A stretch of 64,000 nt of DNA from a bacterium (lineage in GTDB: Bacteria > Patescibacteriota > Minisyncoccia > Phycocordibacterales > UBA5272), in assembly GCA_023267595.1 (NCBI GenBank), contig JAHFNB010000003.1, positions 66,165 through 130,164 of the forward strand. Direction: 5' to 3'. The notes beneath the pieces were generated by a model, which was given only the letters and a program-made list of their open reading frames with translations, made no database searches and was not told where the DNA came from. Below are positions 53,809-64,000 of this stretch, in pieces. A program made the translations under genes and the position numbers. Position 1 is the stretch's first letter. Each line of letters opens with the position of its first letter.

Positions 53809-53880
53809 TCCGTGGTAGCTCAGCGGTAGAGCAGCTCGCTGTTAACGAGTTGGTCGTAGGTTCGATCCCTACCCACGGAG
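53809..53880 (+). tRNA. tRNA-Asn (anticodon GTT)
   Basis: A manual cloverleaf fold works. The acceptor arms TCCGTGG/CCACGGA pair perfectly. The D-stem is GCTC/GAGC. The anticodon stem GCTCG/CGAGT carries the loop CTGTTAA. The T-arm is GTAGG-TTCGATC-CCTAC and the discriminator is G. No CCA is encoded. Confidence 0.9.
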
Positions 53881-55587
53881 CAGTATTGGACACACGTCCA
53901 CGAAAGCCTCATTTCGGTCTGAAATATCAATGATATTTTTAGGTTCGAACTGAGGATTTTTCGTTTTTGCTTGAAGAAGTCCTTTTTGAATTACTTCGTA
54001 CAAGATTCCCTTTGTACTACTTAGATTTTTTTCTTTTAATGTTAAGTTCGAACCTAAGAGACGTAATGCTTCCACCTTCTCATCATAAGTTCCATTTTCA
54101 ATTATTTCTTCAACTTCTACTAAGATTTCAAATTTGTCATCTACGCTCTTTGTAATCACCTTATCTCCTCGTTTAAGCCCCATTTTTGCCCTTAGATGGC
54201 CTATTTCTTCTTGGGTTTTAGCTATCCTTAAAGAAGTGTCTTCCTCATCAAATATTCCTTTTTGGTAGCCGTCTCTTATTTTTTGCTTCTCTTTCTCAAG
54301 TCGTTCTATTTTTTTAATATGACCTTCTTCTACTTCTCCCTTTAACTTTCCTTCTTCTCGTTCTAACATTACTATGCTACTAAGACACCAATCTTTTAAA
54401 GCTGGAGAGATTGCTAATGGTAGTATAAAGTTCTTTTTGAGATGTATGTCTATATCTGATTCCTTAACACTCCCTCCGGGGCACTCTCTATCTCTTTTTC
54501 GAGTACAGTGGTAGTAGATATAGCGAAGCTTTGTACTATTTTTTATCTTTGTTAAAGGTATTTTACATTTTGGGCAATCCTCCTTGTTTTTATATGAGAA
54601 TTTATACTTACAATTCAGACATATCATCTGTTCTTTCTTCTCTGCTGTTACAGACCCTCCACAATTACCACACAGCATAAACCTTTTATATGGGAATTCT
54701 TCTACATAGGTCCACGCTCTTTCTGCACCTGTTCTATGTATCATACTAAGTATCTTCTTATGCTCTTTTTCTGTTATCACTCTTGGAACATCTTTATTTA
54801 CTTCATATCTAACGAGATCTCCATTATCGTCTTTGCCGTAAAAGAACCCTGCGTAGAACGGATCCTTGAGCATGTAGTAGAAGCTTGATAGTTTTATTGC
54901 CACCCCACCAATATTCTTTCTTTGGGTTGTTGTTAAGTTATATTTTTCAACACTGAGTCTATGTAATTGTCTTACCGAGTATTTCTCACTAAGGAATAAC
55001 TTAAAGATGTTCCTTACAATACCAAATCTTTCTCTGTCAGGTAGAATCTTTCTTAACCCTTTTTCTCCTTTATCATTTAGATATCCTACCTTGGCAATTC
55101 CGCCCGGGTACCCCATTCTTCGTTTTTTAACAAGCCCGCGCATAACGTTTTCTCCCTTATTATCATTTTCCATCTTTGCTTGTATACAAAGCATATTGAA
55201 GAAGAATTTATCGCTTGGAGTATTGGAGAATATCTGTTGGTGGGTAATTATGTATTTAAGTTTTCCCTCATCCATCAAATCAATCAGCCTTCCTGCATCT
55301 CCAGCATTACGAGACAATCTATCTGGGTGCCATGTAATAATTCCATCGATCACACCTTTTTCTATTCCTCTTATCATTTGTTCAAATACTGGACGAGTTC
55401 TTGACTTCTTAGCTGATTTTGATTCACGAAATATACTTTCCTTCGGTATATGTACTTTGTATTCTTTTGCTAACTTTAGATTTTGTTCTATCTGTGACTC
55501 AATAGAAAGAACCTGTCTATCTTCTTGCTCACTTGATTTTCTACTATACTCTCCAAACTTTACTTTTGATAAGTCGTAATTTTTCAT
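53869..55587 (-). CDS. large serine recombinase (integrase)
   Basis: It has an N-terminal resolvase-type catalytic domain (YSRKSSEQEDRQ...ITWHPDRLSR), a recombinase domain and a Cys-rich zinc ribbon (CGNCGG...CLNCKYKF...CPKCK). Its 3' end overlaps the last 12 nt of tRNA-Asn. Confidence 0.85.
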   Translation of the reverse strand: MKNYDLSKVKFGEYSRKSSEQEDRQVLSIESQIEQNLKLAKEYKVHIPKESIFRESKSAKKSRTRPVFEQMIRGIEKGVIDGIITWHPDRLSRNAGDAGRLIDLMDEGKLKYIITHQQIFSNTPSDKFFFNMLCIQAKMENDNKGENVMRGLVKKRRMGYPGGIAKVGYLNDKGEKGLRKILPDRERFGIVRNIFKLFLSEKYSVRQLHRLSVEKYNLTTTQRKNIGGVAIKLSSFYYMLKDPFYAGFFYGKDDNGDLVRYEVNKDVPRVITEKEHKKILSMIHRTGAERAWTYVEEFPYKRFMLCGNCGGSVTAEKKEQMICLNCKYKFSYKNKEDCPKCKIPLTKIKNSTKLRYIYYHCTRKRDRECPGGSVKESDIDIHLKKNFILPLAISPALKDWCLSSIVMLEREEGKLKGEVEEGHIKKIERLEKEKQKIRDGYQKGIFDEEDTSLRIAKTQEEIGHLRAKMGLKRGDKVITKSVDDKFEILVEVEEIIENGTYDEKVEALRLLGSNLTLKEKNLSSTKGILYEVIQKGLLQAKTKNPQFEPKNIIDISDRNEAFVDVCPILLRG

Positions 55588-55928: not shown

Positions 55929-56244
55929 CTTCTTCCAACCTTCGGTTTTCACAAAGGCAATCGACATGGCAGTAATTACTATACCGTCAAAAGTTTACTT
56001 CAAAGCATCCTACCTCGTTACTGTATTAGGATAATGGTTAGACAGATTACAGCTGTCTGCACCTGTAGACACTTAGTGTCTCACGGTTGTTTGCGGTCGA
56101 TTCATTCCAATATTGTTTTGTTCCTGTCTGATTATAATTGTAGCACCTTCATTATTCCACACAAGATGGCTCAAAATGTACCCTCGACCCACTTATTTAG
56201 TATCGTTTGATTCTTTCATTTTTTTCAATTAATCAAAGGTTTTT

Positions 56245-56385
56245 GCTCAAACTGATTTCGTTGCAGAAATCAGTTTTTCAATCACTGTGTGTGTTTTTGC
56301 GTTTGCTGATTACGTGTCAGAAATCAAGTTTTCAGCAAGTTTGGTCAATCTGATTTCGTTTCTTTTTTCAGTTTTTCAGTTTTGT
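56245..56385. repeat. array of CTGATTT/AAATCAG half-sites and TTTTCAGT direct repeats upstream of the CPBP gene
   Basis: AAACTGATTT-cgttgcag-AAATCAGTTT is a 10-bp inverted repeat. It is followed by GCTGATTACGTGTCAGAAATCAAG, TCTGATTTCGTTTC and TTTTTCAGTTTTTCAGTTTTG. Confidence 0.5.
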
Positions 56386-56401
56386 AAGCGATAATAGTGC
56401 T

Positions 56402-56887
56402 ATGTACATAAGGATATTCAAGCAATACATGTCTCCGTTCTTGATCGGTGCGCTCGTCATGGCGCTGTATGCTTGTTACATCACGAACATTGGTTTACCT
56501 TCCTTCATAAGTGGTGACACTGTGTGTGTCGCAATGCTTGAGGAAGTTCTAAAGTTAGGCGCTGGAATCTTCCTGATCTATGTATTGAAACTTACCCCGG
56601 GTAGGATCATTTTGTCCTCCGCAGGTTTTGGATTCTATGAGCAGTTGGAACATCTTACCTACAGCATTGGCACCTTCAGTTTTGTTCCAATTGTGATGCA
56701 CACGGTTTCAGGTCTGGTTATGGCTCATTTTCTGCTCAAAGCTTTCCAAGGTGAGCACAAGCGTCATAAGTATGTTTTCTATGCCTTACTGGGCGGAATT
56801 TCGGTCCACGCGGTGTACAACATCCTTCCCAGTGTGACCTTAAAGATCTTATATGTCGTCTTGGTTGGTTTTCTTGTGGGAATCTAA
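56402..56887 (+). CDS. CPBP/Abi (PrsW-like) family intramembrane metalloprotease
   Basis: The 161-aa polytopic protein carries the three family motifs EEVLK (EExxK/R), FGFYE (FxxxE/H) and HAVYN (HxxxN). Confidence 0.5.
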   Translation: MYIRIFKQYMSPFLIGALVMALYACYITNIGLPSFISGDTVCVAMLEEVLKLGAGIFLIYVLKLTPGRIILSSAGFGFYEQLEHLTYSIGTFSFVPIVMHTVSGLVMAHFLLKAFQGEHKRHKYVFYALLGGISVHAVYNILPSVTLKILYVVLVGFLVGI

Positions 56888-57205
56888 TCTCATCACTCCT
56901 GTGATAAGTGCTATCGCAAGCATTGAGAACCACCTCACTTCAAAGGTAACCCTATCTTCCATCCATGTGCATTCTCCGTCTCTGGACCATGATAAGCAGT
57001 TGTCTCCTGCGAATGCTACTGCCGCCAATGTAAGGAGTATTAAACATCCAGTCCAAACGATGACACCGAAGACCTTTCTCCACGTCTTTACCTTATAGAA
57101 ATATTTGTGAGCTTCTTCAGCAAATGTTGTATGAACAACATACAGCACTCCGAAGGCAATGAATGTCTTTACTGCTCCTACGAAGATCTTGTCTAAGATT
57201 TCCAT
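56849..57205 (-). CDS. hypothetical small membrane protein (3 TM)
   Basis: This 118-aa ORF has three hydrophobic helices. Its 3' end overlaps the convergent CPBP gene by 39 nt. Confidence 0.4.
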   Translation of the reverse strand: MEILDKIFVGAVKTFIAFGVLYVVHTTFAEEAHKYFYKVKTWRKVFGVIVWTGCLILLTLAAVAFAGDNCLSWSRDGECTWMEDRVTFEVRWFSMLAIALITGVMRLDSHKKTNQDDI

Positions 57206-57208
57206 AGG

Positions 57209-57376
57209 CTACTTTTTATTATCTGGCCAGTACTCTTTCTTCAGCCAATAAACCAGTCCGGCATAGAGACTGTAACGAAGGAGGATTCCTAAGACCTCTT
57301 TCAGATCGAATGCTTGGGTGATGCTGTATCCTGCCATCAATCCAAGGATTGCGTATATTGCGTATTCTTTTTTCAT
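57209..57376 (-). CDS. hypothetical very small membrane protein (2 TM)
   Basis: Manual translation gives MKKEYAIYAILGLMAGYSITQAFDLKEVLGILLRYSLYAGLVYWLKKEYWPDNKK. It is below the ORF-track cut-off and immediately upstream of the 118-aa ORF. Confidence 0.3.
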   Translation of the reverse strand: MKKEYAIYAILGLMAGYSITQAFDLKEVLGILLRYSLYAGLVYWLKKEYWPDNKK

Positions 57377-57377
57377 G

Positions 57378-57527
57378 CACTGTAGCGGTTTACTTATGTC
57401 TCACTGGAGTCGCTCCGACAAGAGACTCCCCACCGTTGCGATAGACTTGCGTCCATCCATATCCAGTTTCCCAGACATGACCGCTACAGTGACTCCGATG
57501 GGGAGACTCTTGTACTGTAGCGGTTTT
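57378..57527. repeat. GC-rich non-coding segment with three copies of ACTGTAGCGGTT (direct, inverted, direct)
   Basis: CACTGTAGCGGTTT lies at 57378..57391. Its reverse complement GACCGCTACAGTG lies at 57479..57491. ACTGTAGCGGTTTT lies at 57514..57527. AGAGACTCCCC and GGGGAGACTCT motifs sit in between. Confidence 0.6.
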
Positions 57528-57607
57528 AATTGTTTGCCATGCCATGAATGGTTTAGGCTATAGGTTACATGTTATCAAATTTTATATCCTTTATCTATCT
57601 TATTTAA

Positions 57608-60205
57608 TCAATCAACTTCTTTTAAGATATCTAAAGCTTTTTGTGATCTAAGTAGTTTCATTATTGTCGGTGCATCTAACTTTTTATCTTTAAGTATCTT
57701 TGCAACTGATTCTCTCCATGTTAAATCTCCTGATTCACTGAAAGTATTTCTAATCTCCCTTATTGTCGAAAGTGCTTCGTTTGCCCACTTTCTGAAGTCT
57801 GACAGTCTCCATATAGATACTTCGTTTAAGTGTGGTACTGCTCCTTTTTTAACTTTATCAGCAGGCGTAATAAGCACAGGTATAATATTTGCTTTTTCAG
57901 ATATAGAGACATTCTTCTTTATCCAATCTGGGTGTGACGATACTTGTCTTGCTTTGTTGACGTCTATGGTCGCACCGTCTAAAGCTCCAGAATGATCTTC
58001 AAACACGATGCAGTTATCCGAATTAATCCACCAAGGATCAGGTGACCCATCACTTTCTTCTTTCCCTGATTGAAAGCCGAGCATCTCTCCTAATTGTTTA
58101 TGTGCATTTTCAAACGGTTTTGGGTTTGATGAATCCCTTGAATCTAACCCAGTTATTATTTCTGATTCTCTTCGTGAATATTTCCTTCCGTGGGTGGTTC
58201 CTAAGTTTGTTAGAATTTCTTCTATCCTTTCTATTTGCTCAAACACCATCTCTTCCTCAAGGTCTTTTTCTTTCATTGTTATGTCAGAGTATCGTCCAGC
58301 CAATGTTACAAGCCAAGGTATCCCCACAGCACATTCTTTAGCGTTACCAAATTCTTGTTTTGATCTTGTTTCAAAAACCTTATTACCGTTTGCTTTATAG
58401 GCTAAGTAAGCAGATGACCCTGCTAAATAATGCCAAAGTGCTCTATATCCACGTACGTTAGTGTCTTTAAGCTTAGAAAGAACCTTGTCTGCTTCAATAA
58501 GAGCAGATTCATAATCTTTTTGCCACAATTTCATTTGGTATGCAACTTCATGAGAAACTGATTCCTTTAGATCTTGCATTGCTGGAAAAGGCTCTTGAGT
58601 AACTGTTTTACGAGATTCAACAATCTGCTGGTTAACTTGTTCCCATTTTTCTCCATTTTCAAGAAAAACCTCTAAGTTCTCGACTATATCTTTGTTTGTT
58701 GTTTTTTGAGATTGTTCTATTCCGAATTTTAGTTCTGCTTGTAATTCAGGATGAAAGTATTTTCTGCGATTTTTATCCGCAAGGTAGTCAGGAAGTTCTT
58801 GACCAGATATTACCACGGCAGAATAATCCTCAAGTCCACGAGTGCATCTTCCTATGGCTTGTAGTACTCGTGTTTGAATACGTTCATTAAATAGTGCGTT
58901 AGCACCCATTCGAGACATTAAGAACCTTTCTTGTAAGTTCATTGCTCGTGGTAACCCTTCAACAAAAAGGAGTCGGCATTCATCTCCGGGGAAGTCTATA
59001 CCATCATAACGGTTTGCTACAACAACAGTTGCTTTTGATGAACTAACGAATGACTCTTTTGAAGTTTCAATGTCTTCAGATTTGAAAACAGAGTATCCAT
59101 GTTCTTCAACATGAGAAATAACTTCATCTCGCATTTTGTTACTTGGAACAAGAATAAGGCTTCTCTCGGTTTTTTCCATTAGGTTTATCCTGAGATCCTT
59201 CACTTCTTCCTCTTCGAGAGACATATCTGGGAAAATGAAGAACCTTCTCCCTACACCCCCAATTGGAACTGGCAGTCTATGTATACTTGTTCTTCCAACA
59301 AGACGCTCAAGGTCTCCTCCTTCTCCTAATGTTGCCGACATATAAATTCTCTGTTTTGCATTATTAAATGCTGGCAATGTCCAAGTTGGCGGTATTAATG
59401 GTCTTATTAATATCTCCTGTGATGAGAAATAAAGATGGCATGCATGAAGATGATCTTTAATCATGTTCCACGAATATACAAGGTCTGTATCTTTTGTAGA
59501 GACATCTAATATTTCAATTAGTTGATCCTTAATTTCAGAGAATTCAGATGTTGGTAGTTTATCTACCCAAGTCCGATCTGCTATACCATCAACTTCTCCT
59601 ATCAATCGAGAGTAGATAAGTGTCTCAAGGCGAGGTTTTAGCAAGTTTGCTATTGATGTATGAATAGTTGTATGTAGTGGATTTAATCGGTCTATCTTTA
59701 TGGACCATAATTCTGATATGTAGTTTTCTGCTGAATGAATGTCATCTAAGATTATTATTTCTGCATCATTAAAGAATGGACTACTGTTAAACAAGCTACT
59801 ATAGGTAGTAACAGCAATCTTGTCAGCATTTTTATATTCAGCACGTTCAGATGCGTTGTAATCTTTTGACGATCCTGTGAATCCATTAACACTTAGTCCA
59901 TACTTCTCATTTGCTTGATCCACAACTTGGTTAACTAATTGTTTTGTTGGGACAAGATAAACAATTCGCTCTTTATATTTCCTCCTCCTCCATTCTCCTA
60001 TTAGAAGGCCTGCGAGAGTTTTGCCGCTCCCCGTTGGTAATTGCATGGCCACATCAGGTAAATTTATAGCTGTCGCAACGTAGTTGTCCATCAGCTCCTT
60101 CTGGTGTGGTTGTACTGCTGGGTGTTTACGACGAGGAAGGTCCAGAAAGAGTTTTTCTGGTGTGTCTGGTACTGATTTAGGTTGTTCTGTTTCTTTAAAT
60201 GCCAT
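57608..60205 (-). CDS. SF2 DExH-box helicase (Cas3-like motif pattern) with an uncharacterised ~350-aa C-terminal domain
   Basis: The helicase motifs are I LPTGSGKT, Ia YLVPTKQLV, II IILDDIH, III YMSATLG and VI QAIGRCTRG. There is no N-terminal HD or other nuclease domain. The C-terminal region contains SPDPWWINSDNCIVFEDHSG, a possible but imperfect PD-(D/E)xK-like patch. It is the last gene of the hsdR-hsdM-hsdS operon. Confidence 0.75.
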   Translation of the reverse strand: MAFKETEQPKSVPDTPEKLFLDLPRRKHPAVQPHQKELMDNYVATAINLPDVAMQLPTGSGKTLAGLLIGEWRRRKYKERIVYLVPTKQLVNQVVDQANEKYGLSVNGFTGSSKDYNASERAEYKNADKIAVTTYSSLFNSSPFFNDAEIIILDDIHSAENYISELWSIKIDRLNPLHTTIHTSIANLLKPRLETLIYSRLIGEVDGIADRTWVDKLPTSEFSEIKDQLIEILDVSTKDTDLVYSWNMIKDHLHACHLYFSSQEILIRPLIPPTWTLPAFNNAKQRIYMSATLGEGGDLERLVGRTSIHRLPVPIGGVGRRFFIFPDMSLEEEEVKDLRINLMEKTERSLILVPSNKMRDEVISHVEEHGYSVFKSEDIETSKESFVSSSKATVVVANRYDGIDFPGDECRLLFVEGLPRAMNLQERFLMSRMGANALFNERIQTRVLQAIGRCTRGLEDYSAVVISGQELPDYLADKNRRKYFHPELQAELKFGIEQSQKTTNKDIVENLEVFLENGEKWEQVNQQIVESRKTVTQEPFPAMQDLKESVSHEVAYQMKLWQKDYESALIEADKVLSKLKDTNVRGYRALWHYLAGSSAYLAYKANGNKVFETRSKQEFGNAKECAVGIPWLVTLAGRYSDITMKEKDLEEEMVFEQIERIEEILTNLGTTHGRKYSRRESEIITGLDSRDSSNPKPFENAHKQLGEMLGFQSGKEESDGSPDPWWINSDNCIVFEDHSGALDGATIDVNKARQVSSHPDWIKKNVSISEKANIIPVLITPADKVKKGAVPHLNEVSIWRLSDFRKWANEALSTIREIRNTFSESGDLTWRESVAKILKDKKLDAPTIMKLLRSQKALDILKEVD

Positions 60206-60229
60206 GTAGGTGTATTAATTTTAGCATTC

Positions 60230-61357
60230 TCAGACATTCTTAGAGAGTATTGATGAAAACAGGTCATCAATAAGGCCTGAAGATTCCCTTTGCTTTGCAC
60301 TAAAGACGAGTATTTCGTTAACTTTATCTGCAAATTCGTCTTGCTTTTCAATTGGTGGAACTATTACTTGAAGGTTTTTGAGATCCTCAGTATTTAAACT
60401 TTGAACAGTAACTCCTGTCTTTACCATTTTAAGAATCTCTTCCTTTCTCGTTTTAAGTTGTGTGTACATGAAAAGAGTATTTACTTTCTTTGGATCTAAG
60501 TTTATTAGAGATTTTAGATCCTGATTAATGGTAAGTTCTTTTTCATTTATTGCTATTGGTAATGTATGCTGAAGTATCCCACTTCTCGTCACTATAAGTA
60601 TACTGTTTGCTGGTATTATATTAGTTGCCGATTTTTCTATGGCGTCATAAGTTATATGGTCTTGAGAATCTGATATATAATCATTTTTCATATCTTTAGG
60701 AGAAACCCACGGTATCTCTCCATTCCAGAATAATTGATTGCTTTTCGAAGGAGTTCCACCTCCAACAAAATCGAAGTATTTAGTTAGTTTCCCTTTTTCC
60801 CACCCTTGTTCATTTTGCAAAGATGACCCAAACATCTTATCGAATACGGAAGGTATTAATTCAGACATTTTTTGATCTGCTTCAAATCTTTGTTTTTTTA
60901 ATCTCTCAGCTTCTTTTAAAGTTTTTACTATTTCCTTTTGCTCACTAATTTTAGGGAGATTAGAGATCTCATACTCAAGTATTTCTTTTAGTTTTACTGT
61001 TGGATAAGTGGCCCCCGTGGCACGGGACCCTAAGTATGAAAGAAAGTCATTATTCCAAGCAAGAATATAGAACAGGTATTCTATGTCGCACACACCTTCT
61101 TTTGGTATCAGTATTGCAAATGCATTTGAGACAACTTGTTCACTTCTTAGTAAGGTAATTGCACCTCTGGTTGGTCTCACTTTTGATATCAGAACTGAAT
61201 TACTTGGTGCTATCACAGCTCCAGACACAGAAGGCTTTTGCTTTTCAAGAATCTCCTTAGTGTTAATATCTATATCTCCAATTTCTATGTATGGAACTGT
61301 TCCAACTGAAGCTTTCTTTAGATCAATATCTTGAATTATGTCCTTAATTTTTAGCAT
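60230..61357 (-). CDS. hsdS: type I restriction-modification specificity subunit
   Basis: It has two target-recognition halves with conserved VRPTRG. The central and C-terminal conserved regions carry LPKISEQKEIVKTL and PPIEKQDEFADKV. Confidence 0.8.
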   Translation of the reverse strand: MLKIKDIIQDIDLKKASVGTVPYIEIGDIDINTKEILEKQKPSVSGAVIAPSNSVLISKVRPTRGAITLLRSEQVVSNAFAILIPKEGVCDIEYLFYILAWNNDFLSYLGSRATGATYPTVKLKEILEYEISNLPKISEQKEIVKTLKEAERLKKQRFEADQKMSELIPSVFDKMFGSSLQNEQGWEKGKLTKYFDFVGGGTPSKSNQLFWNGEIPWVSPKDMKNDYISDSQDHITYDAIEKSATNIIPANSILIVTRSGILQHTLPIAINEKELTINQDLKSLINLDPKKVNTLFMYTQLKTRKEEILKMVKTGVTVQSLNTEDLKNLQVIVPPIEKQDEFADKVNEILVFSAKQRESSGLIDDLFSSILSKNV

Positions 61358-61359
61358 AA

Positions 61360-62838
61360 TTATAGTTTATCTTGCAGTCTTTTTAATCCTTCAACTATTT
61401 CTTTCTCGAGATGCAATACCTCTTCAATAATTTTTTTAGGATCACGATGTGTTACTACTTGAGTGGTTGCTGGTTTATACCTTGAAGCAGTTAAGTTGTA
61501 ATCTTCACTTACAATTTCTTCTTTACTTACAAGCCAACTATGTGGACCCTCTTCTTTTTTACTGTATGCAGATACTAAATCTTTAAGATTGTTATTTACT
61601 GGGTCAGGGTGCCGTTTGTCATCAAGCGTAAAGCCGTCGCCAGTCACTTCATAAAACCAAACTTTCTCTGTCTTTCTTCCTTTTGTGTAGAAGATTATAG
61701 CTGTCTTCACTCCTGCGTATGGTTTAAATACTCCTGATGGCAAACTTACAACAGCGTCTATCTTAGAGGTATCCACAAGTAGTTGTCTCATTTTCTTGTG
61801 AGCTCCAGTCGAACCAAAGAGAACCCCTTCTGGTACAACTACAGCACATCTTCCTCCATCACTTAAATGATCGTACATGTACTTTAGGAAAAGAAGCTCA
61901 GTCTTTGTTGTACTTAGCCCTATATCTTCCTGTATTGAATCTTGATTTACATTTCCAGAGAATGGAGGATTTGCAAGAATGAGGTCATACTTCTTTTTCT
62001 TTTCTTCGGGTAGTGTGATGGGGTCGAAGTTTACTACGTTTGATTGTGCAAGATCGTGCAGGTAAAGGTTCATTACTGCAACCTTAATCATATCTGCATC
62101 ATTATCAAACCCATTTATTGCCTTAGATTTAAGGAATTCATATTGAGCTGGTGTTAGTTCGTCACCATGCTCGTTTCCTTGTGCGAGTTCTTCTTTTGAA
62201 GTATTTGTTCTCAGTATGTGCTTATAGGCTTCTATTAGAAATCCTGCTGTACCACACGATGGATCAAGTATTAAATCAGATGCTTTGGGTTTCGTTAGTT
62301 CAACCATCGCTTTAATAATGTGTCGAGGTGTTCTAAATTGCCCGTTGGTTCCTGATACGGCAATCTTATTCAAGAGATATTCATACATGTCTCCTTTAAT
62401 ATCAGTATCGTATTTCTCTGTATTGTTGTAGTCCATTCCGTCAATAAGACTTACTACAGATTTTAATGTTGGTCGATTATATATTTTAAGATGAGCCTGA
62501 CGGAACAAAGTCTTACCTGTGGGTGAAAGCTTTGGTAGTTCGTGTAAATGTTCGAAGACATCGGATATTGTATTGTAAAGTTCATCTCCTGAAAGGCGAC
62601 TGATTACTCGCCAACTGAACTTACTTATATTTCCATTGAAGATACTTTCATATTTTTTACCTGAGAGACTGGCCATTCTTTCCTGCTGTTCATCTACTTC
62701 TGTTAGTGATTTTATGAACATCAAGTAGCTAATCTGTTCAATAGCAGTCATTGGATTATTCACTCCACCAGCAAACAACTCGTCCATGATACGATCTACT
62801 TTTTGTTTTATGTCTGAGTTTGTGAATTGTAGTTTCAT
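61360..62838 (-). CDS. hsdM: type I restriction-modification N6-adenine DNA methyltransferase subunit
   Basis: LDPSCGTAGFL is motif I and LILANPPFSG is motif IV (NPPF). The 492-aa protein has an HsdM N-terminal domain. Confidence 0.9.
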   Translation of the reverse strand: MKLQFTNSDIKQKVDRIMDELFAGGVNNPMTAIEQISYLMFIKSLTEVDEQQERMASLSGKKYESIFNGNISKFSWRVISRLSGDELYNTISDVFEHLHELPKLSPTGKTLFRQAHLKIYNRPTLKSVVSLIDGMDYNNTEKYDTDIKGDMYEYLLNKIAVSGTNGQFRTPRHIIKAMVELTKPKASDLILDPSCGTAGFLIEAYKHILRTNTSKEELAQGNEHGDELTPAQYEFLKSKAINGFDNDADMIKVAVMNLYLHDLAQSNVVNFDPITLPEEKKKKYDLILANPPFSGNVNQDSIQEDIGLSTTKTELLFLKYMYDHLSDGGRCAVVVPEGVLFGSTGAHKKMRQLLVDTSKIDAVVSLPSGVFKPYAGVKTAIIFYTKGRKTEKVWFYEVTGDGFTLDDKRHPDPVNNNLKDLVSAYSKKEEGPHSWLVSKEEIVSEDYNLTASRYKPATTQVVTHRDPKKIIEEVLHLEKEIVEGLKRLQDKL

Positions 62839-62839
62839 T

Positions 62840-64000
62840 TTATTCTACGATAGTTAATGCTGGGCTTGTGCGTACTGTATCAAACACTACCTTAATCTTT
62901 GATTCAAAGCCATTGATATATGTACGAGTTCCTCCAAGTTGTGAAAATGGTGGCTCATCAAGGAAAGAGTAGTCTCCCTCTTCGAATTTCGCTAATAGTT
63001 TTGGACTCTGACTTAATTGCTTAATAAGTATCTTTAGAAGACGAGCTTGTTCCAGATTAAGATCTTGGTCAGTTTTAATACTCTCTACAAGTTCCAACAA
63101 CTGCTCTTCTCTTGTTGGTAATTTAGCTACACCAAGACCGGCTTTTACAAAGTCTAATAGTCCTCCAAACACACGGTAAGCACGAGAAAGGTTTCTTTCA
63201 TTGAAGTATTCTGTTGGTTTATCAAATACATTAGTCTTAAGATATTCTGATATTTCTTCTTCGTCGCCTTCACTAATCTTATCTGCAAACCCTTTGTTCT
63301 CTTCCACTATTTGCTTTATGATTTTCTCCCATTTTGTAATGTAAACAAGGCGGTCTACTTTTTCTCCTTCAGGCCCGACTTCAATCATTTCTGTAAGAAC
63401 GATTTCATCAGTACCTGTGTATGTTTGTACTTCCGGTGGAGGAGGTGGAGGTGTTCCTGTGCCACCACCATTATTCCCCCCAGTTGAAACAGGAAGCGGG
63501 GCTTCAAAGTCATATTCTTCCTCGAAATACTTTACGACTTCACAAAAGTCTTGAACGAGAAACTCTTTCTTTTCTTCTCCATTAGGGAAGGTGTATTTTC
63601 TTGTTCCTCTGCCTTTTATTTGAATGTATGTTGTGGGAGAGGCAATCGGACGAGCAAGTATAATATTTTGAATCTCGGGGCAATCAAAGCCAGTAGTTAA
63701 CATATCTACACTTACTGCAACACGAGGATAGAAGTTCTCATCCTTTCTAAATTGCTTAGCTAAATCTGAAGCACCTTGAACTCTTGATGTTATAACCTCT
63801 GCAAACTTTCCATTGTGTTCTGGTGTCATTCTATTTAATTCTCGGGCAAGAGCGACTGCGTGGTTCTGTGAGACTGCAAAAATCACTGACTTACCTATTG
63901 CCCCGTCAGGTGTTTTGAGCGCGTTCTGTAAGAACTGTGTACAAATCAATTCATTTCTCTTTGGTATAAGAACTCGTTTTTCAAGTTGAGAGATTCTGTA
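62840..64000 (-). CDS. hsdR: type I restriction enzyme R subunit, C-terminal part; 5' end runs off the window end
   Basis: Helicase motif VI QIKGRGTR and a DMLTTGFDCPE helicase C-terminal domain are present. The reading frame stays open through position 64000 (...YRISQLEKRVLIPKRNE-LICTQ...), so the gene continues beyond the window. Confidence 0.8.
   Translation of the reverse strand, partial: YRISQLEKRVLIPKRNELICTQFLQNALKTPDGAIGKSVIFAVSQNHAVALARELNRMTPEHNGKFAEVITSRVQGASDLAKQFRKDENFYPRVAVSVDMLTTGFDCPEIQNIILARPIASPTTYIQIKGRGTRKYTFPNGEEKKEFLVQDFCEVVKYFEEEYDFEAPLPVSTGGNNGGGTGTPPPPPPEVQTYTGTDEIVLTEMIEVGPEGEKVDRLVYITKWEKIIKQIVEENKGFADKISEGDEEEISEYLKTNVFDKPTEYFNERNLSRAYRVFGGLLDFVKAGLGVAKLPTREEQLLELVESIKTDQDLNLEQARLLKILIKQLSQSPKLLAKFEEGDYSFLDEPPFSQLGGTRTYINGFESKIKVVFDTVRTSPALTIVE

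What the first reader, a model, noticed from the sequence alone, without database searches (positions are those of the whole stretch)
57608..64000. Type I RM operon extended by a Cas3-like DExH helicase carrying an unknown C-terminal domain
hsdR (partial), hsdM, hsdS and an 865-aa helicase are packed with 1-25 nt spacers on the minus strand, so they are probably co-transcribed. The helicase has clear SF2 motifs (LPTGSGKT, DDIH, SAT, QAIGRCTRG), and their spacing resembles Cas3/HamB-type defence helicases. It has no HD or other recognisable nuclease. Its ~350-aa C-terminal region matches nothing I can name, apart from a weak PD-(D/E)xK-like patch (SPDPWWI...IVFEDH). A second helicase tacked onto a complete type I system is not a canonical architecture. 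It could be a new accessory or independent defence module that uses the RM system's modification status. The two small membrane-protein genes immediately downstream (57209..57376 and 56849..57205) could be effectors.
Basis: partly seen in the sequence, partly recalled or inferred. Interest (0 to 1): 0.75.

Follow-up and report, generated by a model that had tools for sequence, protein, structure and literature searches.

The report
Hna defence helicase-nuclease beside restriction operon
The "unknown" 865-aa helicase after the type I restriction-modification genes belongs to the known Hna (PADLOC PDC-S28) family of single-protein anti-phage helicase-nucleases, and it rides with the restriction system on a small mobile island, so it is an ordinary defence-island arrangement and not a new kind of system.

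Summary
hsdR (partial), hsdM, hsdS and an 865-aa SF2 helicase gene lie head-to-tail on the minus strand with 1, 2 and 24 nt spacers.

The helicase is not unknown and not Cas3-like. It matches PADLOC PDC-S28 over its full length (E 1e-119), and DefenseFinder calls that family Hna. Its AlphaFold model matches the Hna cryo-EM structure first (Foldseek E 1e-37, full length), then XPD, DinG and CasDinG.

Among about 95 homolog loci no neighbour family recurs. Type I RM genes are near about 9 and operonic in 5, in three different gene orders. The small downstream ORFs are never conserved.

The locus is a 12.3 kb serine-recombinase island at tRNA-Asn in a Paceibacterota genome. Hna most likely acts autonomously and is probably co-transcribed with the RM genes. 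This is a new member of a known kind, of modest interest.

The parts
62840..64000 (-). hsdR, 3' part. The full gene is 768 aa and runs off the window end. Type I restriction subunit of the EcoAI/type IB-like family.
   Evidence: Helicase_C, EcoEI_R_C, NF046051 EcoAI/FtnUII, PADLOC REase_I. The full gene is seen in the identical contig at L001 5060-7366.
61360..62838 (-). hsdM, type I N6-adenine methyltransferase (492 aa)
   Evidence: N6_Mtase 4.8e-61, HsdM_N, PADLOC MTase_I 8.6e-149.
60230..61357 (-). hsdS, specificity subunit with two target-recognition domains (375 aa)
   Evidence: Methylase_S with 2 matched stretches, PADLOC Specificity_I 6.8e-46.
57608..60205 (-). hna-like gene: 865-aa Hna/PDC-S28 family helicase-nuclease
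   Evidence: PADLOC PDC-S28 1.4e-119 over residues 6-851. PDC-S28 equals DefenseFinder Hna. PDB Hna 10uj_A 8.2e-35. Foldseek top hit is Hna 9yhn, E 1.4e-37.
58706..60118 (-). SF2 helicase core (residues ~30-500): HEL1 and a DinG/XPD-type HEL2, with no Fe-S cluster cysteines between motifs I and II
   Evidence: Pfam DEAD 37-164, ResIII and Helicase_C_2 344-467. Motifs I, II, III and VI are invariant in 61 family representatives. Structural hits to XPD, DinG and CasDinG. Residues 63-154 contain no Cys (sequence).
60017..60040 (-). Motif I / Walker A, LPTGSGKT (K62)
   Evidence: Invariant in the family.
59735..59746 (-). Motif II, DDIH (DExH-type)
   Evidence: D154, D155 and H157 are invariant.
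58835..58861 (-). Motif VI, QAIGRCTRG
   Evidence: Q449, R453 and R456 are invariant.
58136..58750 (-). All-helical region (residues ~486-690) linking the helicase to the nuclease
   Evidence: Secondary structure of the AF2 model, helices 486-708. Aligned within the full-length match to Hna.
57611..58135 (-). C-terminal PD-(D/E)xK nuclease domain (NUC, residues 691-865)
57944..58045 (-). Nuclease active-site segment SPDPWWINSDNCIVFEDHSGALDGATIDVNKARQ. P722/D723, E736, H738 (in place of the canonical Lys), K751 (relocated Lys) and Q754.
   Evidence: Family alignment with S. meliloti Hna: P712/D713=P722/D723, E727=E736, K729=H738, E743=K751, Q746=Q754. K738 and K751 are mutually exclusive, 17 vs 43 of 61.
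57440..57559 (-). LOOT RNA (Rfam RF03000), 48 nt after the hna stop. It belongs to the island, not to Hna.
   Evidence: 58.4 bits against a gathering score of 46.4. Present in all five serine-recombinase islands of the near clade and in none of 89 other Hna loci.
56849..57376 (-). Two small ORFs (55 aa and 118 aa) that follow the LOOT RNA. They are island cargo of unknown function, not conserved partners of Hna.
   Evidence: No Pfam, PADLOC or NCBIfam hit. No homolog in any Hna locus. The 118-aa ORF has two hydrophobic segments.
53869..55587 (-). Large serine recombinase (572 aa), the island's integrase
   Evidence: Resolvase domain 4.9e-24, XisF-like 2.4e-30. Homologous recombinases lie next to near-clade hna genes in L083, L084, L092 and L093.
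53809..53881 (+). tRNA-Asn(GTT), the integration site. Its 3' 20 nt (53863..53882) are repeated at the far end of the island, beyond the window at about coordinate 66191-66210.
   Evidence: Direct repeat D5 at L001 3996-4015 and 16324-16343, 19 of 20 identical.

Best explanation
The 865-aa protein is a member of the Hna family (PADLOC PDC-S28). This is a single-polypeptide anti-phage system made of a DinG/XPD-like SF2 ATPase without an Fe-S cluster, a helical linker, and a C-terminal PD-(D/E)xK nuclease.

By analogy with S. meliloti Hna, it most likely idles in an ATP-bound, nuclease-off state. A phage cue, such as a phage SSB or accumulating ssDNA, would release it to act as a Mg2+-dependent 3'-5' ssDNA exonuclease. 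That would stop phage replication at the cost of the cell (abortive infection).

It works on its own. Here it is appended to an EcoAI-type type I RM operon and is probably co-transcribed with it. The two independent defences travel together as cargo of a 12.3 kb island. A large serine recombinase integrated that island at tRNA-Asn in a Candidatus Paceibacterota genome.

Shown: family membership, fold, domain architecture, conserved catalytic residues, island structure, and the lack of an obligatory partner.

Inferred: exonuclease polarity, ATP autoinhibition, the SSB trigger, the abortive-infection outcome, and co-transcription.

In this branch of the family the catalytic lysine appears to have moved from the ExK position (His738 here) to Lys751 on the following helix.
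For: Sequence and structure:
- Full-length PADLOC PDC-S28 match, E 1.4e-119 and 3.9e-117.
- The same Bacillus proteins are called PDC-S28 by PADLOC and Hna by DefenseFinder.
- phmmer against the PDB finds Hna 10uj/9yhn/9ykj at E 8.2e-35.
- AF2 model: pLDDT 84.9, pTM 0.84. Foldseek top hits are the Hna monomer (E 1.4e-37, TM 0.62/0.65 over 904 columns) and the Hna dimer, then XPD, DinG and CasDinG.

Active site:
- Alignment with S. meliloti Hna places P722/D723 on P712/D713 and E736 on E727.
- Lys is at position 738 or at 751 but never both, in 60 of 61 representatives (Fisher 3e-14), with ~5 changes on a rough tree.

Autonomy:
- More than 3000 homologs span many phyla at 55-64% identity.
- No neighbour family recurs in more than 6 of 81 loci.
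- HsdM/HsdS lie within 10 kb in 4 of 80 species-representative loci.
- The 59%-identical L092 has hna alone beside the recombinase.
- hna alone restores resistance in S. meliloti (PMC12445080).
- Mechanism of S. meliloti Hna: PMC13381803.

Island:
- tRNA-Asn, a 20-nt direct repeat and the recombinase.
- The host was identified from the fmt gene.
Against: - Identity to the only biochemically studied Hna is 22%. No member of this branch has been tested.
- The residue equivalent to catalytic K729 is His (K729A kills the S. meliloti nuclease). Activity therefore depends on the inferred relocation to K751.
- The S. meliloti dimer-loop residues T30/D31/P34 and the ATP-contact R36 are not conserved here; they align to K27, H28, a gap and Q32. 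The ATP/dimer autoinhibition and the SSB trigger may therefore differ.
- Tight same-strand linkage to type I RM genes recurs in five loci in three different gene orders. That could reflect more than co-transport.
- Co-transcription is inferred only from spacing and a consensus scan that is not calibrated for this phylum.
Confidence: 0.82

Rival explanations
1. The helicase is an accessory of the type I RM system and functionally depends on it. For example, it could read modification status or process DNA ends made by HsdR, so that the four genes form one extended system.
For: - The spacer is 24 nt on the same strand, with no terminator-like site.
- Close relatives L084 (hsdR-M-S-hna, 2 nt gap) and L083 (hsdM-S-R-hna, 1 nt gap, a different type I family) repeat the linkage.
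- L074 and L081 have hna embedded between hsdM and hsdS.
- L007 has a divergent hsdR next door.
- There is a precedent for RM-dependent embedded genes: PrrC-EcoprrI is cited in preprint 10.1101/2024.01.29.577857 as almost exclusively embedded.
Against: - Only 4 of 80 unbiased loci have HsdM/HsdS within 10 kb (5 if the divergent hsdR of L007 is counted), and 2 of 80 are operonic.
- L092, L094 and L095 in the near clade show no RM genes in the sequenced flanks.
- The RM families and gene orders differ between linked loci. That fits repeated independent juxtaposition and not a co-evolved complex.
- S. meliloti Hna works alone (PMC12445080).
- Embedding of autonomous defence genes in type I RM operons, 96.7% co-oriented, is a described general phenomenon (preprint 10.1101/2024.01.29.577857; TgvAB, PMC11411939).
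Confidence: 0.1
2. The nuclease domain is catalytically dead because the ExK lysine is replaced by His. The protein would then act only as an ATPase/translocase or sensor.
For: H738 aligns with S. meliloti K729, whose K729A mutation abolishes nuclease activity.
Against: - D723 is invariant and E736 is in 60 of 61 representatives.
- A Lys at 751 is present exactly in those family members that lack K738 (43 vs 17, none with both).
- The whole domain is under strong conservation, with 70% mean column identity among relatives that are 55-64% identical.
- Active-site residue migration is well known in the PD-(D/E)xK superfamily (general knowledge, not tested here).
Confidence: 0.06
3. It is a housekeeping DinG/XPD-type repair helicase, or a Cas3 or Hachiman HamB helicase, that merely happens to lie next to the RM operon.
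For: Weak HMM hits to CasDinG (1.7e-18), dinG_rel, Cas3 and HamB models. Structural similarity to XPD and DinG in the helicase core.
Against: - Those hits cover only parts of the helicase core and fall far below the curated cut-offs.
- There is no Fe-S cluster, no HD domain and no HamA/DUF1837 partner. No cas, HamA or DUF1837 family was hit among the ORFs scanned from 53.8 kb to the window end.
- The gene sits on a mobile island and is patchily distributed across phyla.
- The full-length best matches are Hna and PDC-S28.
Confidence: 0.02

Closest known systems
Hna (helicase-nuclease abortive infection) of Sinorhizobium meliloti, SMa2245; PDB 9YHN/10UJ (monomer) and 9YKJ (dimer); DefenseFinder 'Hna', PADLOC 'PDC-S28'
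   Same: - Similar length, 865 vs 845 aa.
- The same order of parts: HEL1, a DinG-like HEL2 without Fe-S, a helical linker, then the PD-(D/E)xK NUC domain.
- All SF2 motifs, the PD and E catalytic residues, and the Q in the following helix.
- Best sequence and structure match over the full length.
- A patchy, horizontally transferred distribution.
   Different: - Only 22% identical.
- The canonical ExK lysine is His738, with Lys751 in its place.
- The dimer-loop residues and R36 are not conserved.
- The gene is appended to a type I RM operon on a serine-recombinase island in a Paceibacterota genome, not carried alone on a rhizobial megaplasmid.
- No experimental data exist for this branch.
DinG/XPD (Rad3) helicases, including ExoDinG and CRISPR type IV CasDinG
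   Same: RecA-lobe arrangement and a Helicase_C_2-type second lobe. PMC13381803 notes that Hna resembles ExoDinG 3'-5' ssDNA exonucleases.
   Different: - No Fe-S domain.
- The nuclease is a C-terminal PD-(D/E)xK domain, not an N-terminal DnaQ-like exonuclease.
- Matches to these families are partial and below family cut-offs.
Autonomous defence genes embedded in or appended to type I RM operons (PrrC-EcoprrI; TgvAB in V. cholerae VPI-2; 'guilt-by-embedding' candidates)
   Same: Same-strand, near-zero-spacer placement next to hsd genes. It recurs in several unrelated hsd operons. The likely benefit is co-regulation and co-transfer of layered defences (preprint 10.1101/2024.01.29.577857; PMC11411939).
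   Different: PrrC is found almost only inside type I RM loci. This family is outside RM loci in roughly 90% of cases.
Cas3 and Hachiman HamB
   Same: SF2 DExH ATPases used in defence together with a nuclease.
   Different: - Only the P-loop region matches (E 1e-4 to 1e-7, residues ~33-130).
- No HD domain, no HamA partner and no cas genes.
- A different C-terminal lobe family.

Membership tests
Hna / PADLOC PDC-S28 | Full-length match to the family profile | tested here: met
   PDLC04986 E 1.4e-119 (residues 6-851 on profile positions 9-822 of 831). PDLC04987 E 3.9e-117. PDC-S28 and DefenseFinder Hna name the same proteins.
Hna / PADLOC PDC-S28 | N-terminal SF2 helicase core with intact ATPase motifs (I, II DExH, III, VI) | tested here: met
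   LPTGSGKT, DDIH, SAT and QAIGRCTRG are present and invariant in 61 representatives. Pfam DEAD, ResIII and Helicase_C_2.
Hna / PADLOC PDC-S28 | DinG/XPD-like fold lacking the Fe-S cluster | tested here: met
   After Hna itself, Foldseek finds XPD, DinG and CasDinG. There is no cysteine between motifs I and II (sequence).
Hna / PADLOC PDC-S28 | [quoted passage not shown] | tested here: met
Hna / PADLOC PDC-S28 | Catalytic triad P-D ... E-x-K (S. meliloti D713, E727, K729) | tested here: inconclusive
   D723 and E736 are present. The K position is His738. An invariant Lys751 is present and is mutually exclusive with K738 across the family. Catalytic competence was not measured.
Hna / PADLOC PDC-S28 | Acts as a single-gene system with no conserved partner gene | tested here: met
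   No neighbour family occurs in more than 6 of 81 loci. The small downstream ORFs are not conserved. L092 has hna alone.
Hna / PADLOC PDC-S28 | ATP-stabilised autoinhibited dimer through the HEL1 loop (T30/D31/P34), relieved by phage SSB | tested here: inconclusive
   The N-terminal loop is strongly conserved within this clade. The S. meliloti residues align to K27, H28 and a gap. Oligomeric state cannot be tested with these tools.
Hna / PADLOC PDC-S28 | Abortive-infection phage resistance phenotype; 3'-5' ssDNA exonuclease activity | not testable with these tools
   Requires experiments. Known only for S. meliloti Hna (PMC13381803, PMC12445080).
Cas3 | HD nuclease domain, Cas3-type helicase C-terminal region, and cas gene context | tested here: not met
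   No HD domain hit. Cas3 models match only residues ~33-132 at E 1e-5 to 1e-7. TIGR01587 scores 22.7 against a cut-off of 102. No Cas family was hit among the ORFs scanned from 53.8 kb to the window end.
Hachiman HamB | Full-length HamB profile match and an adjacent HamA (DUF1837) nuclease | tested here: not met
   HamB models match only residues ~34-117 at E 6.5e-5 or weaker. No DUF1837 gene is in the locus.
Type I restriction-modification system (the upstream three genes) | HsdR, HsdM and HsdS subunits encoded together | tested here: met
   The 865-aa protein is not one of the defining subunits.

The most novel reading that the evidence does not exclude
In Paceibacterota and related lineages, Hna may have become functionally coupled to type I restriction instead of merely co-located with it. 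For example, the operon might ensure that Hna is made only with the RM complex. Its 3'-5' ssDNA exonuclease might finish off DNA opened by HsdR, or it might fire when phage anti-restriction or SSB proteins appear. In addition, the relocated-lysine active site (E-D-H...K) might give this branch a different substrate or regulation from S. meliloti Hna. The evidence does not exclude this: five operonic linkages in three gene orders, and non-conserved regulatory residues.
Probability: 0.1. Interest if true: 0.55.

Novelty: new member of a known kind. Interest (0 to 1): 0.27.

Why it matters
- It removes a false lead. The "unknown C-terminal domain" is the Hna nuclease, and current defence-finder models already capture the gene.
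- It extends Hna to candidate-phyla-radiation bacteria (Paceibacterota). There it is a recurrent cargo of small serine-recombinase islands inserted at tRNA genes.
- It documents that Hna is one of the autonomous systems repeatedly spliced into type I RM operons.
- It points to a lysine-relocation dimorphism in the Hna nuclease that mutagenesis could test directly. This matters for generalising the S. meliloti mechanism to the rest of the family.

Tried and rejected
- **Cas3 and HamB assignment.** Rejected. Only P-loop-level matches, no HD domain and no HamA.
- **Housekeeping DinG/XPD or Lhr.** Rejected. All matches are partial and sub-threshold, and the gene sits on a mobile island.
- **Small membrane ORFs as effectors.** Rejected. 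No family hits and no homologs next to any Hna homolog, even at E <= 10.
- **Conserved partner gene.** All-against-all clustering of 1987 neighbouring ORFs found nothing recurrent.
- **Metagenome scan for close relatives.** It returned only 7 loci, none closer than 58% identity, so it did not help to quantify RM linkage in the near clade.
- **Iterated HsdR profile.** It drifted onto helicases in general and was not used for counting. The HsdM and HsdS profiles were used.
- **N-terminal 98 aa against the PDB.** This was meant to align the Hna dimer loop. It gave no alignment upstream of the P-loop. The question was answered by fetching S. meliloti hna from pSymA.
- **Source names for the protein and its closest relatives.** None are recorded.
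- **Sather et al. 2023.** The original Hna paper is not in the searchable library. Its findings are cited through PMC12445080 and PMC13381803.
- **RNAalifold consensus for the home-made LOOT model.** It missed the long P2 hairpin. The model was used only as a detector.

Full report
**1. Observation.** The minus strand of 57608..64000 carries four head-to-tail ORFs:
- a partial hsdR (62840 to the window end)
- hsdM (61360..62838, 492 aa)
- hsdS (60230..61357, 375 aa)
- an 865-aa ORF (57608..60205)

An identical 141-kb metagenomic contig (L001) shows the whole hsdR is 768 aa. It confirms spacers of 1, 2 and 24 nt. Pfam, PADLOC and NCBIfam identify the first three as an EcoAI-type (type IB-like) type I RM system. 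A consensus scan finds no terminator-like site between hsdS and the helicase gene and no promoter-like site in the 24-nt spacer. Co-transcription is therefore plausible, though the scan is not calibrated for this phylum.

**2. Identity of the helicase.** PADLOC's PDC-S28 models match the protein end to end (E 1.4e-119 and 3.9e-117). Cas3 and HamB models touch only the P-loop region. A published comparison of PADLOC and DefenseFinder shows that the same proteins are called PDC-S28 by one tool and Hna by the other (PMC11811056).

Hna is the helicase-nuclease abortive-infection system discovered in Sinorhizobium meliloti. The gene alone restores phage resistance there (PMC12445080). Its cryo-EM structure and biochemistry were published in 2026 (PMC13381803):
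- two SF2 lobes resembling DinG/XPD but without the Fe-S cluster
- a C-terminal PD-(D/E)xK nuclease
- 3'-5' ssDNA exonuclease activity
- autoinhibition in an ATP-stabilised dimer
- activation by a phage SSB

Sequence search of the PDB finds that Hna entry first (E 8.2e-35). An AlphaFold model of the window protein (pLDDT 84.9, pTM 0.84) hits the Hna monomer first (Foldseek E 1.4e-37, TM 0.62/0.65 over the full length). The Hna dimer comes next, then XPD, DinG and CasDinG. Pfam's Helicase_C_2 hit and the absence of any cysteine between motifs I and II agree with a DinG-like, Fe-S-less core.

A search of 1.84 billion representative proteins with the C-terminal 360 aa finds 694 relatives. All carry the domain at the end of ~860-aa proteins or are fragments of such proteins. 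The domain is therefore specific to this helicase family.

I fetched S. meliloti hna from pSymA and aligned it with 61 family representatives:

| Window protein | S. meliloti Hna |
|---|---|
| P722/D723 | P712/D713 |
| E736 | E727 |
| H738 | K729 (catalytic; K729A is nuclease-dead) |
| K751 | E743 |
| Q754 | Q746 |

Across the 61 representatives, lysine sits either at position 738 (17 sequences) or at 751 (43 sequences). It is never at both, and one sequence has neither (Fisher 3e-14). A rough tree needs about five changes. I read this as relocation of the catalytic lysine onto the following helix, so the nuclease is probably active. This is an inference, not a measurement. The sample was also chosen by similarity to the window protein, so the proportions do not describe the whole family.

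**4. Is it an accessory of the RM system?** More than 3000 homologs exist. The best ones are 55-64% identical and come from very different phyla. I fetched 80 species-representative loci, 7 metagenome loci and 6 loci of the closest relatives.
- Clustering 1987 neighbouring ORFs found no family present in more than 6 of 81 loci. The top two clusters were HsdR-like and HsdM-like.
- Iterated HsdM and HsdS profiles find type I genes within 10 kb in 4 of the 80 unbiased loci.
- In two of these (L074, L081), hna is embedded between hsdM and hsdS.
- A fifth locus (L007, Paceibacterota) has a divergent hsdR.
- Among the closest relatives, L084 repeats the window's hsdR-M-S-hna order with a 2-nt gap.
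- L083 has hsdM-S-R-hna with a 1-nt gap, and its RM system is of a different, EcoR124-like family.
- L092 has hna alone, and L094 and L095 show no RM genes in the sequenced flanks.

The linkage is therefore real and recurrent, but facultative and assembled independently in three gene orders. That pattern is what has been described for autonomous defence genes embedded in type I RM, BREX and DISARM loci, which are 96.7% co-oriented (preprint 10.1101/2024.01.29.577857; TgvAB, PMC11411939). The obligatory PrrC type shows the opposite pattern.

**5. The small ORFs.** The 55-aa and 118-aa ORFs have no family hits and no homolog in any Hna locus. They are separated from hna by 231 nt. That gap contains a LOOT RNA (Rfam RF03000, 58.4 bits). 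Nothing supports them as Hna effectors.

**6. Context.** A tRNA-Asn gene (53809..53881) overlaps the 3' end of a 572-aa large serine recombinase gene (53869..55587). The last 20 nt of the tRNA are repeated 12.3 kb away, just upstream of hsdR and beyond the window end. These repeats delimit an integrated island holding one unassigned 267-aa ORF, hsdRMS, hna, the LOOT RNA, the small ORFs and the recombinase.

Flanking genes are housekeeping (def, fmt, PPIase, HPF). The fmt gene's best named relatives are from Candidatus Paceibacterota. Homologous recombinases accompany hna in L083, L084, L092 and L093. In L092 the recombinase overlaps tRNA-Trp. In this island family hna is the constant cargo and the RM system the variable one.

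**7. Mechanism and confidence.**
- Shown here: membership of the Hna/PDC-S28 family, the fold, the domain order, intact ATPase motifs, conserved acidic nuclease residues, and the absence of an obligatory partner.
- Inferred from S. meliloti Hna: ATP-bound autoinhibition, release by a phage cue such as SSB, 3'-5' ssDNA degradation, and abortive infection.

The regulatory details are the least secure. The dimer-loop residues T30/D31/P34 and R36 are not conserved, and overall identity is 22%.

**8. Verdict.** The gene is a new member of a known defence family in a known kind of arrangement. The residual novelty lies in three things: possible functional coupling to the RM system, the relocated-lysine active site, and the LOOT-bearing island family.

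Noticed in passing
window 57440..57559 (-); L084 10893-11016, L092 5941-6060, L083 13279-13407, L093 6879-7008: An Rfam LOOT RNA (RF03000, listed by Rfam as a metagenome-based sRNA) lies 48 nt after the hna stop. The same RNA occurs in all five near-clade islands that carry a large serine recombinase. A model built from these copies finds none in the 89 other Hna loci (1.6 Mb). LOOT thus appears to be a component of this recombinase-island family in Patescibacteria-like genomes, not a companion of Hna.
   Followed up: partly
window 57375..57392 and 57515..57527 (-); the same arrangement in L083, L092, L093, and further upstream in L084: The 5' half of LOOT's long hairpin (window AAACCGCTACAGT) is repeated directly in front of the ATG of the ORF that follows LOOT 54-66 nt downstream. 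The repeat co-varies with the hairpin between loci (CCGCTAGAGA, CCAACGAC). Folding L093 pairs the hairpin's 3' half with the downstream copy; folding the window keeps the LOOT hairpin. This suggests a cis-acting leader with two exclusive conformations that controls the downstream start codon. The downstream ORFs differ in length and annotation between loci (55, 149, 218, 294 and 384 aa).
   Followed up: partly
window 53809..55587 and beyond the window end (about 66191-66210 in window numbering; L001 3996-4015 and 16324-16343): A 12.3 kb integrative island is bounded by a 20-nt direct repeat (19 of 20 identical) of the tRNA-Asn 3' end. The large serine recombinase gene overlaps the tRNA by 13 nt. 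In L092 a homologous recombinase overlaps tRNA-Trp in the same way.
   Followed up: partly
window 57953..57994 (residues 738 and 751 of the helicase); 61 family representatives: The Hna nuclease domain comes in two forms. One has the canonical FE[DA]K lysine. The other has FED[H/Y/N] plus a lysine 13 residues later (KARQ). The two are mutually exclusive (17 vs 43, none with both) and need about five switches on a rough tree. The characterised S. meliloti Hna is the canonical form, and the window protein is the relocated form.
   Followed up: yes
L074 5396-16747 and L081 6987-16772 (Sulfuritalea and Thiobacillus MAGs): Here hna is embedded inside a type I RM operon: hsdM - second hsdM-like gene - hna - hsdS - hsdR. 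All are on one strand, with gaps of 3 nt or overlaps of 4 to 20 nt. The duplicated hsdM is unusual.
   Followed up: no
window 56000..57500: G+C rises to 41-45% here, against 34-39% in the flanking 1-kb windows. The stretch covers the LOOT RNA, the two small ORFs and a convergent 161-aa membrane ORF (56402..56887 +, weak PrsW-like hit, E 3e-4). That ORF overlaps the end of the 118-aa ORF.
   Followed up: no
L084 15004-15327: A group I intron (Rfam, 70 bits) lies immediately after the serine recombinase gene of the island most similar to the window's. It is possibly inside the tRNA or other target gene at that island's boundary.
   Followed up: no
L094 4693-7719; L095 5824-8092; L093 4973-6298 and L083 11520-12848: Other cargo lies next to near-clade hna genes. 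These include a 1008-aa caspase-like (Peptidase_C14)-DEAD helicase fusion, an AAA_15/21 ATPase with an Mrr_cat nuclease, and ParB_N-N6_N4 methyltransferase fusions. This suggests the islands are small defence islands with swappable modules.
   Followed up: no
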